From Desulfobacteria bacterium (GTDB taxonomy: Bacteria; Desulfobacterota; Desulfobacteria; Desulfobacterales; C00003060): DNA of 40,026 nucleotides. The stretch spans positions 1 through 40,026 of the forward strand of contig JAQYWL010000106.1 in the NCBI GenBank assembly GCA_030145035.1, read 5' to 3'. Every line of letters begins with the position of its first letter. The first letter of the stretch is position 1. Under the pieces are notes generated by a model. That model worked only from the letters and a program-made list of their open reading frames with translations, had not been told where the DNA came from and ran no database searches. The position numbers were made by a program, and so were the translations under genes. Shown piece by piece: positions 20,429-30,114 of the stretch.

Positions 20429-21004
20429 CTACTTTGGATTTAGACTCGTGTAAGCGCTGATAAATGTCTGTACCTGCTCCGTCACTTCGGCTTGGATACG
20501 ATCCAAACGACGAAAACCGAGCGAGCCGGTCGACCAAGTCGTCGATAGTCCTTTAGCATTAGGGTCTCGCAAAAGGCAAACCGTCTGGCGAAGCTCAACA
20601 TCGATCCTGTAAAGGTATCTCTCTATGGGACCACCTTTGGGAACTCGCTCACCATCAACCGTGTAAGTGTACTTCTGCAGGGTCTCGGGCATGAGAATGC
20701 GGACATTCACGTAAAGCATGCCCGCGAAATCTGATTTCCTAAATTCTTCGCACGAGAGCACCTTGATGCTTGCTACCTCAAGCTTCCGTTCGATAACGGT
20801 CTGTAATGTCTCTTCTGTAAGCCCGCCCTTTTTGAGTTCCTTTTTGAGTTCAGGGTCTAAATTCTCTACCTGAACACAGACGGCCTGGAGCCCCCGGAGC
20901 GTCGAACGGGATTCTCTATTATCCATTGCCAATAAGGAGAGAGGCATCTCTAAAGTAACCAAAACCATAACCATCCAAACAAAGCAATGTTTCCTTTTCG
21001 TCAT
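20429..21004 (-). CDS. Hypothetical exported protein
   Basis: An AGGAGG lies 9 nt upstream of the ATG. The N-terminus MTKRKHCFVWMVMVLVTLEMPLSLLA is signal-like. I recognise no family. Confidence 0.55.
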   Translation of the reverse strand: MTKRKHCFVWMVMVLVTLEMPLSLLAMDNRESRSTLRGLQAVCVQVENLDPELKKELKKGGLTEETLQTVIERKLEVASIKVLSCEEFRKSDFAGMLYVNVRILMPETLQKYTYTVDGERVPKGGPIERYLYRIDVELRQTVCLLRDPNAKGLSTTWSTGSLGFRRLDRIQAEVTEQVQTFISAYTSLNPK

Positions 21005-21106: not shown

Positions 21107-21634
21107 TCAAAGTCTTTTTTTTTCAAACCACCAGAAAAGGGTTAATCCTCCCATCACAAATAGGGGGATAATGACCCAGTGGTTCAAACCCAGCACCTGG
21201 GGTATGGTGATTTTACCGAAATCGCCCCAGGTCAAGACCGTTTTCTTAAGGCTCGGGTAGGCTTCTGCGAAGAGGCCCGCACCAACCAGCATTCCTAAGA
21301 CACCCCATAACCCGTCCCATCGGCCTTCGCCCAAGGCGCCGACCGCAGTCCCTGGACAATAACCTAACAGTCCCCAGCCGAGCCCAAAGACCAGGCCGCC
21401 CAAAATATTGCCACCTAATACGGTAGGCTTGACAGAGAGTTGGGCTAATCCAAGATCCAAAAGTGTGTAAACACCCACCATGCTCACCAGGATGCTCGAG
21501 AGCATAAACTTGACAATCGTCATGTCCATCAAACGCATGGCCCCCAGTTGCTTGTCGTAGCGAATGACCCGGGCCTTTTGCAGGAAGAACCCAAAGAGCA
21601 TGCCGGCAATTAGCCCATAGACGAGTATTCTCAT
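21107..21634 (-). CDS. YeeE/YedE-family (sulfur/thiosulfate-transport type) membrane protein, second half-protein
   Basis: The sequence reads MRILVYGLIAGMLFGFFLQKA...GGLVFGLGWGLLGYCPGTAVGALGEG, which carries the conserved GYCPGT. Its ATG overlaps the stop of the upstream half-gene in an ATGA at 21631-21634. Confidence 0.85.
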   Translation of the reverse strand: MRILVYGLIAGMLFGFFLQKARVIRYDKQLGAMRLMDMTIVKFMLSSILVSMVGVYTLLDLGLAQLSVKPTVLGGNILGGLVFGLGWGLLGYCPGTAVGALGEGRWDGLWGVLGMLVGAGLFAEAYPSLKKTVLTWGDFGKITIPQVLGLNHWVIIPLFVMGGLTLFWWFEKKRL

Positions 21635-22155
21635 TTGCCATCATCTCCCCCATAAAGAGCACGAGCAACGACAATTCCGCCTACAAAAAAACAAACGAGA
21701 GCAATGTATCCGCTCACGGCTAGCTGGAGCGAACCGCCCAGCCCGTGGCCGCTCGGTCACCCATCGGCCAGGCGAGCTCCGAACATGGCTATGAGCCCAC
21801 CCGTAAAGGCGACGACGCCTCTCCTGATTCGGCTTGGGCCAAAACGCGCTTCCCACATGTCCGGCAGTGCCGTCCATCGAAAGGTGCCCGAAGAGGTTGA
21901 CGCAATGAGGGATCCGATGAAGATACCCAGCACGAACATGCACTGCCAGTCAATTTTTGGCGCCTCCTTGACGAAGTAATCCATTTTGGCCACCCGCTCG
22001 GCGCTGAATAGTCTCTCGACCATGCCGACTGATCGGACAAAGGTGGTTGATGCGCCGACGAACTTGCCTGCGAACCACACCGATAGAATAAATACGACAC
22101 CGCTCAAGGCGCCCCCTATGTATGGACTCCAGCCTCTGTCGTCCGCAGTGTTCAT
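21631..22155 (-). CDS. YeeE/YedE-family membrane protein, first half-protein, with in-frame UGA (candidate selenocysteine) at 21757-21759
   Basis: ATG at 22155 follows AGGAGG plus 9 nt. The translation is MNTADDRGWSPYIGGALSGVV...FTGGLIAMFGARLADG-[TGA]-PSGHGLGGSLQLAVSGYIALVCFFVGGIVVARALYGGDDGK. The UGA sits where family members have the Cys of G-C-x-S-G-H-G. The frame stays open and ends in an overlap with the next gene's start. Confidence 0.7.
21727..21754 (-). promoter_or_regulatory. Candidate bacterial SECIS-like hairpin 3' of the UGA
   Basis: The mRNA reads UGA CC GAGCGGCC ACGGGCUGGGC GG U UCGCUC. An 8-bp stem (one G-U pair, one bulged U) starts 2 nt after the UGA and has a G-rich 11-nt apical loop. 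It was folded by eye only. Confidence 0.35.
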
Positions 22156-22386
22156 GATTGTACACCTCCTGTGCTGATTAAGGCGTAGCTTGCCATTCAG
22201 TGTAAACAGCAATCTACTCACATGGACTTAGGCAAGCACGGATCCCAGCTTGTACGCCGCACCCTAAAATTATTAGTTACTAAAAACGTAAAAAAAAGAA
22301 ATAGGGTGGAAAAAGTATTTGTAAAAGAAAAAGACCGTATTTTTCAGATGAAGACATAACTCAGTGGAAAAAGGCGATTTCTTGCC

Positions 22387-24397: not shown

Positions 24398-24661
24398 TCA
24401 TAGGAGCTTGCGAATGCGATCGTACCCATGCTTAATTTCCTTTGCCAGTTGCTTTGCAGCAGCCCCTATGTCTTTTGATGCGTCTCCTGCCTCGGTCCCA
24501 AGCACAGGCGTTTTTGCCTTGAGTTGCTCCCACTTTTTCTCAGCCTTCTCCCATTCATCGCCAGCCTCAGCCTTTGCGAGATTGAGCTTCACTTTGAGTT
24601 CATCCCGTTGTTGTTTCAGGGTTTCTACAAGTTTTTTCACATCGTCATGTGTCTGAGTCAC
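24398..24661 (-). CDS. Small (87 aa) charged coiled-coil protein, function unknown
   Basis: GTG at 24661 follows GGAGGGAGAC. The product begins (M)TQTHDDVKKLVETLKQQRDELKVKLNLAKAEAGDEWEKAEKKWEQLKAK.... A degraded paralogous copy lies near 32470-32640. Confidence 0.55.
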   Translation of the reverse strand: MTQTHDDVKKLVETLKQQRDELKVKLNLAKAEAGDEWEKAEKKWEQLKAKTPVLGTEAGDASKDIGAAAKQLAKEIKHGYDRIRKLL

Positions 24662-24802
24662 GTCTCCCTCCTTTCTGCTTGTAGGCTCGAATTCTGACCG
24701 CCTGGTAATAAACGCATTATGGACTGACCAAGGTCTGACGTAAGCTGTGGGCAAAAAGACAAGTGACGATCCTTTAGATATCCAGACCTTTGATAACGTT
24801 TT

Positions 24803-25543
24803 TCAGAACATTGGCTGAAGCTTGCAGCTATGTCTGCTAAGGAGATATCTGAATCGCGCGGTATCCAAGACTGTCCCTGATCCGATGACCCTATTCATAG
24901 GATATCCTGAAACCTTTAAGGCCACATAGGTCAAAACATCAACCGGATTGGAGACGATGAGTAGGATCCTCGGATTGTATTTAGCGATCTGAGGGATAAT
25001 ATCCTTGAAGATATCTGCGTTCCTTCGAACCAAATCCAGCCTCGTTTCGCCCGGTTTCTGACTGGCGCCTGCAGTCACAACGACGATACTTGCATCCTTG
25101 CAATCCGAGTAGTTTCCAACATAAATGCTGGAGGGCTGGACAAAGGAAAGGCCGTGATTAAGATCCATCACGTGTCCCTCTGCTCGCTCAGTAGCTTGAT
25201 CAATGAGAACGATGCTCGTGGCCAAGCCGCTGATCATGAGAGCAAAGGCAAAGGTGGAACCCACCTGACCTGTACCCACGATGGCTACTTTTCTTTCCTG
25301 GACAAAGTCTGCTTGCAACAGCTTCAAATATTTTTCCGGATCCTCTTCAAATGAGGCCTTACATCTCATGGCACAGAAATAATATGTCTTGTCCATATAT
25401 TGAACTTGGTGTTTGACCTGATTCTCATCTACCTCCATGCCGCATACCGGATCTTTGACCATAATCCTTCTCGCTTTCTCTCTCGAACATGATTTGTCTT
25501 TGAATTTACACATATGGGCACGTGATGTCCCGGTTTCTCCCAA
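24803..25543 (-). CDS. YHS/TRASH-like metal-binding domain fused to the N-terminal NAD-binding half of an L-lactate/malate dehydrogenase; truncated before the catalytic half (possible pseudogene)
   Basis: The YHS-like part is [42 protein letters not shown]. The LDH-like part is [18 protein letters not shown]...GETRLDLV..N...SNPVDVLT...[18 protein letters not shown], followed by 8 unrelated codons and a stop. The GEHGDS catalytic region is absent in all frames downstream. The start is uncertain (25543, 25513 or 25462). Confidence 0.6.
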
Positions 25544-29599: not shown

Positions 29600-30114
29600 T
29601 CATGCAGGGTGAACAGTCACGTCTACAACTTCAGTGTTCTTTATGATGTCATGTGCCCTGTTTACCTCATCCTGCGTCCCGTGGGCAATGACCAAGAATT
29701 TGTCAGCCTTGAGGGCGGTTTCATACTAAATGATACTATCTTTGGGAATGCCAATACTGTACAATCCGGCTCCAAGCGCACTCAGACCACCTGCTATAGC
29801 CGCACTTTCCAAAGCTCCAAGCATCCAGGAAACCAGGGGGCCGCCCACAAGTAATGGACCAACGCCTGGTACCCAGAAAAACGCTGATCCAAAGAGCATG
29901 GCCCATATACCGCCCCAAAAGGCGCCCAGTTTGCCCCAGTACTTCATGCGGTCGCCAGCATTGTAGTAGCCAACGACGTGTTTCTCGGTGTGGTAATCCT
30001 TACCCACAATGGAAGTTTCTTCATGTCAAACCCGGACTTCTCCAGTTGTTTGACGGCTTCTTCGGCCTTGTCGTGGGTATCGTAGATACCGATGACAGCA
30101 TTTTTTTGTTTCAT
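29600..30114 (-). pseudogene. Disrupted gene for a small stress-type membrane protein (soluble N-domain, Gly-zipper TM region, soluble C-domain; YflT/DUF1269-like)
   Basis: GGAGGAGGGAA precedes ATG 30114, which gives MKQKNAVIGIYDTHDKAEEAVKQLEKSGFDMKKL. A 1-nt deletion lies near 30011-30013. The next frame reads (I)VGKDYHTEKHVVGYYNAGDRMKYWGKLGAFWGG...LYSIGIPKDSII. After TAG at 29726-29728 it continues YETALKADKFLVIAHGTQDEVNRAHDIIKNTEVVDVTVHPA*. The total length of 515 nt is not a multiple of 3. Confidence 0.6.

What the first reader, a model, noticed from the sequence alone, without database searches (positions are those of the whole stretch)
21631..22155. In-frame UGA at the conserved cysteine of a split YeeE/YedE transporter: candidate selenoprotein
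The track ORF stops at ...FTGGLIAMFGARLADG-TGA (21757-21759). The same frame then continues PSGHGLGGSLQLAVSGYIALVCFFVGGIVVARALYGGDDGK. It terminates at 21631 in an ATGA overlap with the start of the next gene, which is the second YeeE/YedE half-protein and carries GYCPGT. Family members carry G-C-x-S-G-H-G at this position, so UGA replaces a conserved Cys. That is the classical Sec/Cys-pair signature, not a random nonsense site. A hairpin with a G-rich loop can form 2 nt after the UGA (21727-21754). The gene also has a strong SD at its real start (22155). YedE-type proteins are linked by comparative genomics to selenium metabolism, which makes a Sec-containing member notable. I cannot say from memory whether such a family is already catalogued.
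Basis: partly seen in the sequence, partly recalled or inferred. Interest (0 to 1): 0.75.

Follow-up and report, generated by a model that had tools for sequence, protein, structure and literature searches.

The report
Selenocysteine codon in split sulfur transporter
The in-frame UGA is almost certainly a real selenocysteine codon replacing an essential pore cysteine in one half of a two-gene YeeE/YedE-type sulfur transporter, but this selenoprotein family is already listed in the literature, so the window holds a new member rather than a new kind of thing.

Summary
On the minus strand an ORF (ATG 22155) runs through TGA 21759-21757 and stays open 41 more codons to TGA 21633-21631, overlapping (ATGA) the start of a second YeeE/YedE half-protein gene.

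The selenoprotein reading is strongly supported:
- All 120 closest homologues have Cys at that column.
- At least 120 species genomes carry TGA at the same codon with the downstream frame kept (dN/dS 0.14).
- An independent metagenome assembly, and a 43-member cluster of close relatives truncated at the same point, carry the same stop.
- TGA forms, but not TGY forms, carry a conserved covarying hairpin that meets the published bacterial SECIS criteria.

The Sec aligns with Cys293 of Spirochaeta thermophila YeeE, an essential substrate-contacting residue. The partner subunit always keeps Cys at the Cys91 position.

- The conserved hairpin is 21743-21722, not 21754-21727.
- The pair is not an orthologue of the selenium-linked YedE/FdhT.
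- The family (motif GUxSG) is already catalogued (Peng 2016 supplement; 2022 and 2026 reviews).

Sec machinery could not be checked, because the window is the whole contig. Verdict: a real but known kind, of modest interest.

The parts
22165..22170 (-). Shine-Dalgarno sequence AGGAGG, 9 nt upstream of the ATG at 22155
   Evidence: Read directly from the sequence. The gene call in the independent contig L001 starts at the same ATG and gives a 132-aa product.
21631..22155 (-). Full selenoprotein ORF: 174 codons (Sec at codon 133) plus a TGA stop. It is the PmpA/YedE1-like subunit, which resembles the C-terminal half of full-length YeeE.
   Evidence: PF04143 at E 2.7e-23, profile positions 175-309 of 310. 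It aligns to S. thermophila YeeE residues 235-328. It has four hydrophobic segments, with Sec133 between the third and fourth.
21757..21759 (-). In-frame UGA, read as selenocysteine, in the motif G-U-P-S-G-H-G
   Evidence: Cys in 120 of 120 homologues. TGA at the same codon in at least 120 species genomes. It aligns with Cys293 of StYeeE. The closest Cys form has TGC here.
21722..21743 (-). Core of the bacterial SECIS-like hairpin: a 9-bp stem with one bulged U and the apical loop GUU at 21734-21732, 22 nt after the UGA. In this sequence a lower stem extends the structure to 21752-21716.
   Evidence: Covariation at pairs 18-37 and 19-36 of alignment A1, with 38 double-change cells against 7.7 in shuffles. 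The core stem is intact in 85% of TGA forms against 17% of TGY forms, and mean MFE is -11.8 against -5.3 kcal/mol, p 5e-31. All four bSECIS criteria are met.
21107..21634 (-). Second subunit gene (175 aa), PmpB/YedE2-like, resembling the N-terminal half of YeeE. Its conserved Cys93 (TGT, 21358-21356) lies in GYCPGT. Its start overlaps the first gene's stop (ATGA, 21634-21631).
   Evidence: PF04143 profile positions 17-151, plus DUF6691. It aligns to StYeeE residues 4-182, with its Cys opposite Cys91. This position was Cys (TGC or TGT) in every one of the 107 TGA-form loci where the motif could be read, and never TGA.

Best explanation
Genes 22155-21631 and 21634-21107 encode the two halves of a PmpAB/YedE1E2-type split member of the YeeE/YedE (PF04143) sulfur-transporter family. 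Together they probably form a heterodimer equivalent to one full-length YeeE. Codon 133 of the first gene is UGA and is decoded as selenocysteine. An mRNA hairpin 13 nt downstream (21743-21722, loop GUU) would serve as the bacterial SECIS that recruits SelB carrying Sec-tRNA(Sec), so the ribosome inserts Sec and goes on to translate the last 41 residues, which include the final transmembrane helix. The Sec occupies the position of Cys293 in S. thermophila YeeE. That is the outward-facing, substrate-contacting cysteine at the pore constriction. The partner subunit keeps an ordinary Cys at the Cys91 position. By inference, the selenolate serves as a more nucleophilic first acceptor for a sulfane-sulfur or thiosulfate-type substrate, which then passes to the partner Cys and into the cytoplasm. 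Shown here: the Cys/Sec pair, translation of the tail in frame, the Sec-specific conserved hairpin, and the homology mapping. Inferred: actual selenium incorporation in this organism, heterodimer formation, the substrate, and the relay chemistry.
For: 1) All 120 closest homologues have Cys at the UGA column.
They span Thermodesulfobacteriota, Desulfuromonadota, Nitrospirota, Synergistota and Firmicutes, and include the isolates Malonomonas rubra DSM 5091, Syntrophorhabdus aromaticivorans UI, Desulfatibacillum alkenivorans DSM 16219 and Hydrosulfovibrio ferrireducens CB1MN. In almost all of them the frame stays open for about 36-47 codons encoding PSGHGLSGSLQLAVSG..., and it usually ends in the same ATGA overlap.
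3) Among TGA forms only, the 36 codons after the TGA have dN/dS 0.14 in frame, against 1.2 and 3.2 in the other two frames.
4) The hairpin shows compensatory changes at synonymous positions: 18-37 has GC 73, AU 16, CG 5, UA 2, and 19-36 has CG 98, UA 12. There are 38 double-change cells against 7.7 in shuffles (0 of 500 reach it), and 83.6% of cells are paired against at most 48.7% when the partners are slid.
5) Control with 111 TGY (Cys) forms of the same split architecture: the core stem is intact in 17% against 85%, and mean MFE is -5.3 against -11.8 kcal/mol (p 4.7e-31). The loop Gly codon is GGU in 26 of 111 against 100 of 113, and the Leu codon is CUG in 38 of 111 against 97 of 113.
6) The published bSECIS criteria are met by the window and by 95.6% of TGA forms, against 26% of TGY forms.
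7) TGA is an ordinary stop for 8 of 24 well-supported genes in the window, so UGA is not reassigned genome-wide.
8) Independent assemblies keep the TGA.
9) The Sec aligns with StYeeE Cys293 and the partner Cys with Cys91. Both are essential, and Cys293 contacts thiosulfate at the periplasmic site (PMC7449682). In split YedE1E2 the single Cys of each subunit is essential for zero-valent sulfur import (PMC10812762). PmpA and PmpB were mapped to the C-terminal and N-terminal halves in the same way (PMC11582611).
10) The family is already listed as a selenoprotein with motif GUxSG.
Against: No selA, selB, selC or selD, and no tRNA, lies in the window. The window is the whole 40,026-bp contig, so this organism's Sec machinery remains unverified. 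On the single sequence the hairpin is not more stable than shuffled controls, and no Rfam family matches. The support for a SECIS is therefore entirely comparative. The TGA and TGY sets come from different collections and their members are phylogenetically related, so the p-values overstate independence. The closest Cys form also keeps the hairpin, so presence of the hairpin alone does not prove current Sec decoding. There is no experimental evidence of selenium incorporation for any member of this family in the literature searched. The substrate and the relay chemistry are inferred from distant homologues.
Confidence: 0.88

Rival explanations
1. The TGA is a nonsense mutation or an assembly or sequencing error, so the gene is broken or really has TGC/TGT here.
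For: The contig does carry other damaged genes: a frameshifted small membrane-protein gene at 30114-29726 and an LDH-like gene without its C-terminal domain at 25543-24803. The closest full-length homologue differs at this codon by a single base, TGC.
Against: The same TGA is present in an independent assembly from another sample. It is implied by a cluster of 43 close relatives truncated at the same point and is present in at least 120 species genomes. The tail is under strong purifying selection among TGA forms (dN/dS 0.14). A Sec-specific hairpin accompanies the TGA.
Confidence: 0.02
2. The UGA is read through without selenocysteine. Either a near-cognate tRNA inserts Trp, Cys or Arg at the leaky UGA-C context, or the gene has outlived loss of the Sec machinery in this lineage. 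The hairpin would then merely stimulate read-through or be a relic.
For: Sec machinery is unverified for this genome. UGA followed by C is a weak termination context in bacteria (established knowledge, not tested here). Sec and Cys forms interconvert often (at least about 45 changes on a 319-taxon tree), and a close Cys relative keeps the hairpin. Hairpins can therefore persist without Sec decoding.
Against: The hairpin has the loop, spacing and stem expected of a SelB-binding bSECIS, and the loop GGU codon is nearly fixed only in TGA forms. TGA forms occur mostly in Deltaproteobacteria/Thermodesulfobacteriota, Synergistetes and Firmicutes, groups reported as selenoprotein-rich. About 10 TGA-form loci sit next to a peroxiredoxin gene that also has TGA at its catalytic Cys. 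The named BamA relatives of this contig are Thermodesulfobacteriota.
Confidence: 0.07
3. Translation really ends at the UGA. The functional product would be the 132-residue protein, and the downstream 41 codons would be untranslated or made separately.
For: Gene callers annotate a 132-aa product.
Against: A 132-residue product would lack the GxPSGHG motif and the last transmembrane helix, which are invariant in the family. The tail evolves as coding sequence in the same frame. It begins directly with Pro-Ser-Gly, with no start codon after the UGA.
Confidence: 0.02

Closest known systems
Catalogued 'YeeE/YedE (thiosulfate transporter) family' selenoprotein, PF04143, motif GUxSG, representative WP_012471001.1 (reviews PMC9312934 and PMC13188914; Peng et al. 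2016 supplement, 5 organisms)
   Same: Same Pfam family and exactly the same Sec motif, G-U-P-S-G.
   Different: Nothing essential differs, so this is another member. The literature found gives only a table entry. It has no SECIS description, no mapping of the Sec onto the structure and no note of the two-gene architecture. The distribution found here (at least 120 species) is far wider than the 5 genomes counted in 2016. No direct alignment with WP_012471001.1 could be made.
PmpA/PmpB (Serratia sp. ATCC 39006) and YedE1/YedE2 (Cupriavidus pinatubonensis, Sinorhizobium meliloti): split YeeE-family zero-valent sulfur importers
   Same: Two adjacent genes. One resembles the C-terminal half and carries the Cys293 equivalent; the other resembles the N-terminal half and carries the Cys91 equivalent. 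Each subunit has one conserved essential Cys.
   Different: The subunits here are about 175 aa rather than about 130-140 aa. The C-half-like subunit has Sec instead of Cys. No PDO, rhodanese, TusA-like or ArsR-type neighbour lies in the window. Sequence identity to PmpAB itself was not measured.
TsuA/YeeE thiosulfate transporter (S. thermophila structures 6LEO and 6LEP; YeeE-YeeD complex 8J4C and 8K1R)
   Same: Homologous fold family. The pore cysteines Cys91 and Cys293 are conserved, as Cys and Sec respectively.
   Different: TsuA is a single 9-helix chain with a third Cys (Cys22) and needs the partner TsuB/YeeD. Here there are two chains, the Cys22 position is Ile, and no YeeD gene is adjacent. 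NCBIfam scores are 35-44 bits against cut-offs of 400-645.
YedE/FdhT selenium-metabolism membrane protein (TIGR04112, NF033796)
   Same: Same superfamily.
   Different: The scores of 24-31 bits fall far below the cut-offs of 200-350, and there is no yedF or selD context. The selenium link of that family is by gene neighbourhood, not by containing Sec.
Bacterial SECIS consensus (bSECISearch model, as summarised in PMC13188914)
   Same: The loop is 3-6 nt and starts with G followed by G or U. The stem is 9-10 bp. There are 22 nt between the UGA and the loop. MFE is well below -7.5 kcal/mol.
   Different: It is not related in sequence to the E. coli fdhF element or to any Rfam SECIS family. It lies entirely within the codons for the conserved G-L-S-G-S-L-Q-L.

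Membership tests
Bacterial selenoprotein gene (Sec-UGA plus bSECIS) | In-frame UGA aligned with a conserved Cys in homologues (Cys/Sec pair) | tested here: met
   120 of 120 homologues have Cys at the column.
Bacterial selenoprotein gene (Sec-UGA plus bSECIS) | TGA-containing orthologues in other organisms, with the downstream frame conserved as coding sequence | tested here: met
   At least 120 species genomes. Tail dN/dS is 0.14 in frame, against 1.2 and 3.2 out of frame.
Bacterial selenoprotein gene (Sec-UGA plus bSECIS) | Downstream stem-loop meeting the bSECIS model: loop 3-9 nt with G in its first two positions, stem 4-16 bp, 16-37 nt from the UGA, MFE at most -7.5 kcal/mol | tested here: met
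   Window: loop GUU, 9-bp stem, 22 nt spacing, -21 kcal/mol for the 45-nt fold. 95.6% of TGA forms pass, against 26% of TGY forms. Covariation supports it.
Bacterial selenoprotein gene (Sec-UGA plus bSECIS) | selA, selB, selC (tRNA-Sec) and selD present in the same genome | not testable with these tools
   None is in the window.
Bacterial selenoprotein gene (Sec-UGA plus bSECIS) | Selenium actually incorporated at the UGA position | not testable with these tools
   This needs 75Se labelling or mass spectrometry.
YeeE/YedE superfamily (Pfam PF04143 Sulf_transp) | Match to the Pfam model above its gathering score | tested here: met
   83.4 bits for the first gene and 52.4 bits for the second, against a cut-off of 27.
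Catalogued YeeE/YedE-family selenoprotein (GUxSG) | Sec within the motif G-U-x-S-G of a PF04143 protein | tested here: met
   The sequence reads ...ADG-U-PSGHG.... The motif is as listed in PMC13188914.
Catalogued YeeE/YedE-family selenoprotein (GUxSG) | Direct sequence similarity to the listed representative WP_012471001.1 | not tested
   That sequence cannot be fetched by accession with these tools.
PmpAB / YedE1E2 split transporters | Two adjacent genes. One matches the C-terminal half with the Cys293 equivalent, the other the N-terminal half with the Cys91 equivalent. | tested here: met
   Pfam profile ranges 175-309 and 17-151. Alignments to 6LEO. Definition from PMC11582611.
PmpAB / YedE1E2 split transporters | Subunits of about 130-140 aa, each with four transmembrane helices | tested here: inconclusive
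   The subunits are 174 and 175 aa. Hydropathy gives four hydrophobic segments in the Sec subunit and about five in the partner. The AlphaFold monomer model has low confidence.
TsuA/YeeE thiosulfate transporter | NCBIfam TsuA models scored above their cut-offs | tested here: not met
   35-44 bits against cut-offs of 400 and 645.
TsuA/YeeE thiosulfate transporter | Single nine-helix chain with three conserved cysteines, and an adjacent TsuB/YeeD gene | tested here: not met
   There are two separate genes. The Cys22 position is Ile. The neighbours are a 191-aa protein with no family match and GAPDH. No TusA-like cluster appeared among the neighbours of 119 loci.
YedE/FdhT selenium-metabolism membrane protein | TIGR04112 or NF033796 scored above their cut-offs | tested here: not met
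   24-31 bits against cut-offs of 200 and 350.

The most novel reading that the evidence does not exclude
The selenocysteine sits in the translocation pathway of a membrane transporter, at the outward-facing entry site. It is always paired with an ordinary cysteine one step further in. This would make the pair a chalcogen-relay importer: the selenolate attacks extracellular polysulfide, sulfane sulfur or a selenium species, forms a covalent Se-S (or Se-Se) intermediate, and hands the atom to the partner Cys. It would be a catalytic transport mechanism for which no selenoprotein precedent has been characterised. The variant is widespread in anaerobes (at least 120 species) and switches often with the Cys form, possibly tracking selenium supply or sulfide stress.
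Probability: 0.3. Interest if true: 0.6.

Novelty: new member of a known kind. Interest (0 to 1): 0.3.

Why it matters
For annotation, the gene is currently called as a 132-residue hypothetical protein in this contig and in dozens of related assemblies. It should be a 174-residue selenoprotein.

For biology, the family is catalogued but uncharacterised. Three findings here could guide experiments. The Sec form is common in sulfate-reducing, syntrophic and Synergistota lineages. The Sec always replaces the Cys293-equivalent entry-site cysteine and never the Cys91 equivalent. A well-defined SECIS is embedded in the conserved GLSGSLQL codons. Together these could inform work on how YeeE-type transporters use their pore cysteines (hydrogen bonding versus covalent relay). 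They also give a compact natural SECIS-plus-membrane-protein test case, and several cultured strains carry it.

None of this changes current understanding of selenoproteins, so the finding is of modest interest.

Tried and rejected
1) Single-sequence folding of the region after the UGA gave z-scores of only -0.5 and -1.0 against shuffles, which is uninformative. Comparative analysis replaced it.
2) Rfam gave no match at gathering thresholds over the whole window, or at E up to 10 around the UGA.
It has only 8 double-change cells, and its own 5' arm shows almost no Sec-specific codon restriction. It was rejected in favour of 21743-21722. The two share a 3' arm and cannot form together.
4) Finding the rest of the genome failed. 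An exact look-up of the P-type ATPase found nothing. The cluster look-up showed that the window is a complete 40,026-bp NCBI contig. No retrieved locus is the same species; the best is 74% nucleotide identity.
5) A search for a second selenoprotein gene in the window found no convincing in-frame-TGA candidate. The flagged 29.7-30.4 kb region is a frameshifted gene instead.
6) The AlphaFold2 model of the closest Cys form as a monomer had mean pLDDT 61.9 and pTM 0.37, and the Cys loop was below 50. Foldseek against the PDB gave nothing (best E 7.6). No structural conclusion was drawn.
7) Gene-neighbourhood analysis of 119 TGA-form loci found no strongly conserved partner. The most frequent neighbour, a pyridine-nucleotide-disulfide oxidoreductase, occurs in 18 loci. 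This gives only weak functional hints.
8) The main texts of the two primary papers cited by the reviews do not mention the family by name. Only the supplement of Peng 2016 does.
Full report
OBSERVATION

On the minus strand an ORF starts at ATG 22155, with AGGAGG 9 nt upstream at 22170-22165. It reads ...GARLADG and then meets TGA at 21759-21757. The same frame continues PSGHGLGGSLQLAVSGYIALVCFFVGGIVVARALYGGDDGK and ends at TGA 21633-21631. That stop overlaps the ATG (21634) of the next gene, which is 175 aa and carries GYCPGT.

With U read as C, the 174-aa product matches Pfam PF04143 (Sulf_transp) at E 2.7e-23 over profile positions 175-309. The second gene matches positions 17-151.

IS THE UGA MORE THAN A CHANCE NONSENSE SITE?

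Five lines of evidence say yes.

- All 120 best database homologues (169-179 aa) have Cys at the aligned column, within an almost invariant A-[DG]-G-C-P-S-G-H-G-L.
The genomes are mostly Thermodesulfobacteriota (Syntrophorhabdus, Syntrophales, Desulfobacterales and others). Desulfuromonadota, Nitrospirota, Synergistota and some Firmicutes also appear. Four are cultured isolates.
- In almost all of these loci the frame stays open for about 36-47 codons after the TGA, encodes the conserved tail, and usually ends in the same ATGA overlap with a second-half gene.
- Among TGA-bearing genomes only, the 36 codons after the TGA have dN/dS of about 0.14 in the gene's frame. The other two frames give 1.2 and 3.2. 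The 60 codons upstream give 0.29. The tail is therefore translated in frame.
- The TGA is not an assembly error. A JGI contig from another sample is 99.87% identical and keeps the TGA, while differing by one amino acid elsewhere. The truncated product also belongs to a 90%-identity cluster of 43 members; of the 15 listed, 13 are 132-133 aa and two are 151 aa, from many assemblies.

TGA terminates 8 of 24 well-supported genes in the window, and it also ends this gene itself. UGA is therefore not reassigned genome-wide.

THE RNA ELEMENT

On the single sequence no hairpin beats shuffled controls, and Rfam finds nothing. The comparative evidence is clear, though.

I aligned 113 distinct 66-nt segments starting at the TGA (A1). 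They share a hairpin at columns 16/17-25 paired with 29-38/39. In the window this is 21743-21722.

- The apical loop is usually GUU. Where the peptide is GLA instead of GSL, the loop is GGUCUG.
- Pair 18-37 occurs as GC 73, AU 16, CG 5 and UA 2.
- Pair 19-36 occurs as CG 98 and UA 12.
- These columns are the third position of a Gly codon, the first positions of two Leu codons and the third position of a Gln codon. Protein constraint cannot explain the coupling.
- There are 38 double-change cells, against 7.7 in column shuffles (0 of 500 reach it). Pairing is 83.6%, against at most 48.7% when partners are slid by 1-3 columns.

As a control I retrieved 111 distinct TGY (Cys) forms with the same split architecture.

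| Measure | TGA forms | TGY forms |
|---|---|---|
| Four core pairs all intact | 85% | 17% |
| Mean hairpin MFE (kcal/mol) | -11.8 | -5.3 |
| Loop Gly codon is GGU | 100 of 113 | 26 of 111 |
| Stem Leu codon is CUG | 97 of 113 | 38 of 111 |
| Residues at +9/+10 | restricted to SL, LA, TL | varied (MM, LM, ...) |

The MFE difference has a Mann-Whitney p of 4.7e-31.

The published bacterial SECIS model requires a loop of 3-9 nt with G in its first two positions, a stem of 4-16 bp, 16-37 nt between the UGA and the loop, and MFE of at most -7.5 kcal/mol (PMC13188914). The window meets all four criteria: loop GUU, 9 bp, 22 nt, -21 kcal/mol. So do 95.6% of TGA forms, against 26% of TGY forms.

It pairs about as often but shows little covariation, and its own arm has no Sec-specific codon restriction. 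I regard it as a competing pairing, not the functional element.

WHAT THE PROTEIN IS

The Sec aligns with Cys293 of Spirochaeta thermophila YeeE/TsuA (6LEO). The Cys of the second gene aligns with Cys91. The Cys22 position is Ile.

In the crystal structure, Cys293 contacts thiosulfate at the periplasmic entry site. Cys91 lies about 7 A further in. Both are essential (PMC7449682).

Short two-gene relatives (PmpA/PmpB) have been mapped in exactly this way, to the C-terminal and N-terminal halves, and are proposed to form a heterodimer (PMC11582611). The homologous YedE1E2 pair imports zero-valent sulfur. The single Cys of each subunit is essential, and a persulfide relay has been proposed (PMC10812762).

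The window pair therefore works like a PmpAB/YedE1E2-type split transporter, although its subunits are longer (174 and 175 aa).

It is not a TsuA orthologue. It scores 35-44 bits against cut-offs of 400-645, has no adjacent YeeD and is not a single chain. It is also not the selenium-linked YedE/FdhT, scoring 24-31 bits against cut-offs of 200-350.

In every one of the 107 TGA-form loci where the partner's motif could be read, the Cys91 equivalent is TGC or TGT and never TGA. Sec is therefore specific to the entry-site position.

Gene context is variable. In 18 of 119 loci a pyridine-nucleotide-disulfide oxidoreductase lies directly downstream. In about 10 loci a peroxiredoxin gene that itself has TGA at its catalytic Cys lies next door. 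In the window the neighbours are a 191-aa protein with no family match and GAPDH.

MOST LIKELY MECHANISM

SelB with Sec-tRNA(Sec) would recognise the 21743-21722 hairpin as the ribosome reaches UGA 21759-21757. Sec is inserted, and the last 41 residues are made. These include the final transmembrane helix.

The two subunits would assemble into a YeeE-like pore. Sec133 of the first subunit would lie at the outer constriction and Cys93 of the second behind it.

The selenolate is more nucleophilic than a thiol and is deprotonated at physiological pH (established chemistry). It would capture a sulfane-sulfur or thiosulfate-type substrate and pass it inward.

- Shown: the decoding signals, translation of the tail, and the positional homology.
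- Inferred: selenium incorporation in this organism, heterodimer formation, the substrate, and covalent versus hydrogen-bond chemistry.

SEC MACHINERY

There is no tRNA and no sel gene in the window, and the window is the entire contig.

The indirect evidence is favourable. The named BamA relatives of this contig are Thermodesulfobacteriota, Deltaproteobacteria and Desulfobacterales. The TGA forms occur mainly in three groups reported as selenoprotein-rich: Deltaproteobacteria, Synergistetes and Firmicutes (PMC5029168).

EVOLUTION

Sec and Cys forms are interleaved. An NJ tree of 319 sequences needs at least about 45 state changes, against about 91 for shuffled labels.

The window's nearest relatives are Cys forms. 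One of them, P0002, is 87.6% identical in nucleotide sequence. It has TGC yet keeps the hairpin, with a compensatory G-C to A-U change. This points to a very recent switch between Sec and Cys.

NOVELTY

A 'YeeE/YedE family' selenoprotein is listed in the supplement of Peng et al. 2016, in 5 organisms. It also appears in the 2022 and 2026 reviews, with motif GUxSG and representative WP_012471001.1.

The window gene has exactly this motif, so it is a new member of a known kind.

The literature I could search gives no SECIS description, no mapping onto the structure, no note of the split architecture and no experiments. The much wider distribution, the Sec-specific hairpin and the positional specificity found here are useful increments, not a new phenomenon.

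DEAD ENDS

The AlphaFold2 monomer model had low confidence and the fold search gave nothing. No second selenoprotein gene was found in the window. The source genome could not be reached.

Noticed in passing
window 29726-30114 (minus strand): Two overlapping ORFs look like one small membrane-protein gene interrupted by a frameshift near 30007-30015. One is 56 aa (MKQKNAVIGIYDTHDKAEEAVKQLEKSGFDMKKL...). The other is 93 aa (...GKDYHTEKHVVGYYNAGDRMKYWGKLGAFWGG...). This is either a pseudogene or an assembly error.
   Followed up: partly
window 24803-25543 (minus strand): This ORF combines an N-terminal YHS metal-binding domain with only the NAD-binding domain of lactate/malate dehydrogenase. The catalytic C-terminal domain is missing, and the next ORF (24398-24754) is unrelated. 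The gene is truncated or an unusual fusion.
   Followed up: no
L005, L007, L010, L019, L024, L045, L047, L062, L075, L102 (about 950 nt upstream or downstream of the YeeE TGA): In about 10 genomes the Sec-form YeeE pair sits next to a same-strand peroxiredoxin gene that also has an in-frame TGA at its catalytic cysteine (GDFTFV-U-ATE or -PTE). Two selenoprotein genes are therefore clustered there.
   Followed up: partly
L242:1919-2443 (protein P0002), compared with window 21631-22155: The closest Cys-form relative (87.6% nucleotide identity) has TGC instead of TGA. It still retains the SECIS-like hairpin, including a compensatory G-C to A-U change. This looks like a 'fossil' or very recently switched SECIS.
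   Followed up: partly
window 20429-21004 (minus strand): The 191-aa protein directly downstream of the transporter pair has a hydrophobic N-terminus that looks like a signal peptide (by eye, not tested) and no Pfam or NCBIfam match. It is conserved only in close relatives (a 26-member cluster, 191 or 235 aa). Its relation to the transporter is unknown.
   Followed up: no
alignment A1, columns 28-33 (window 21732-21727), compared with the TGY forms: In TGA forms the residues at +9/+10 after the Sec are restricted to S-L, L-A or T-L. Cys forms mostly have M-M or L-M. The RNA structure appears to constrain the protein sequence of the pore-adjacent helix.
   Followed up: partly
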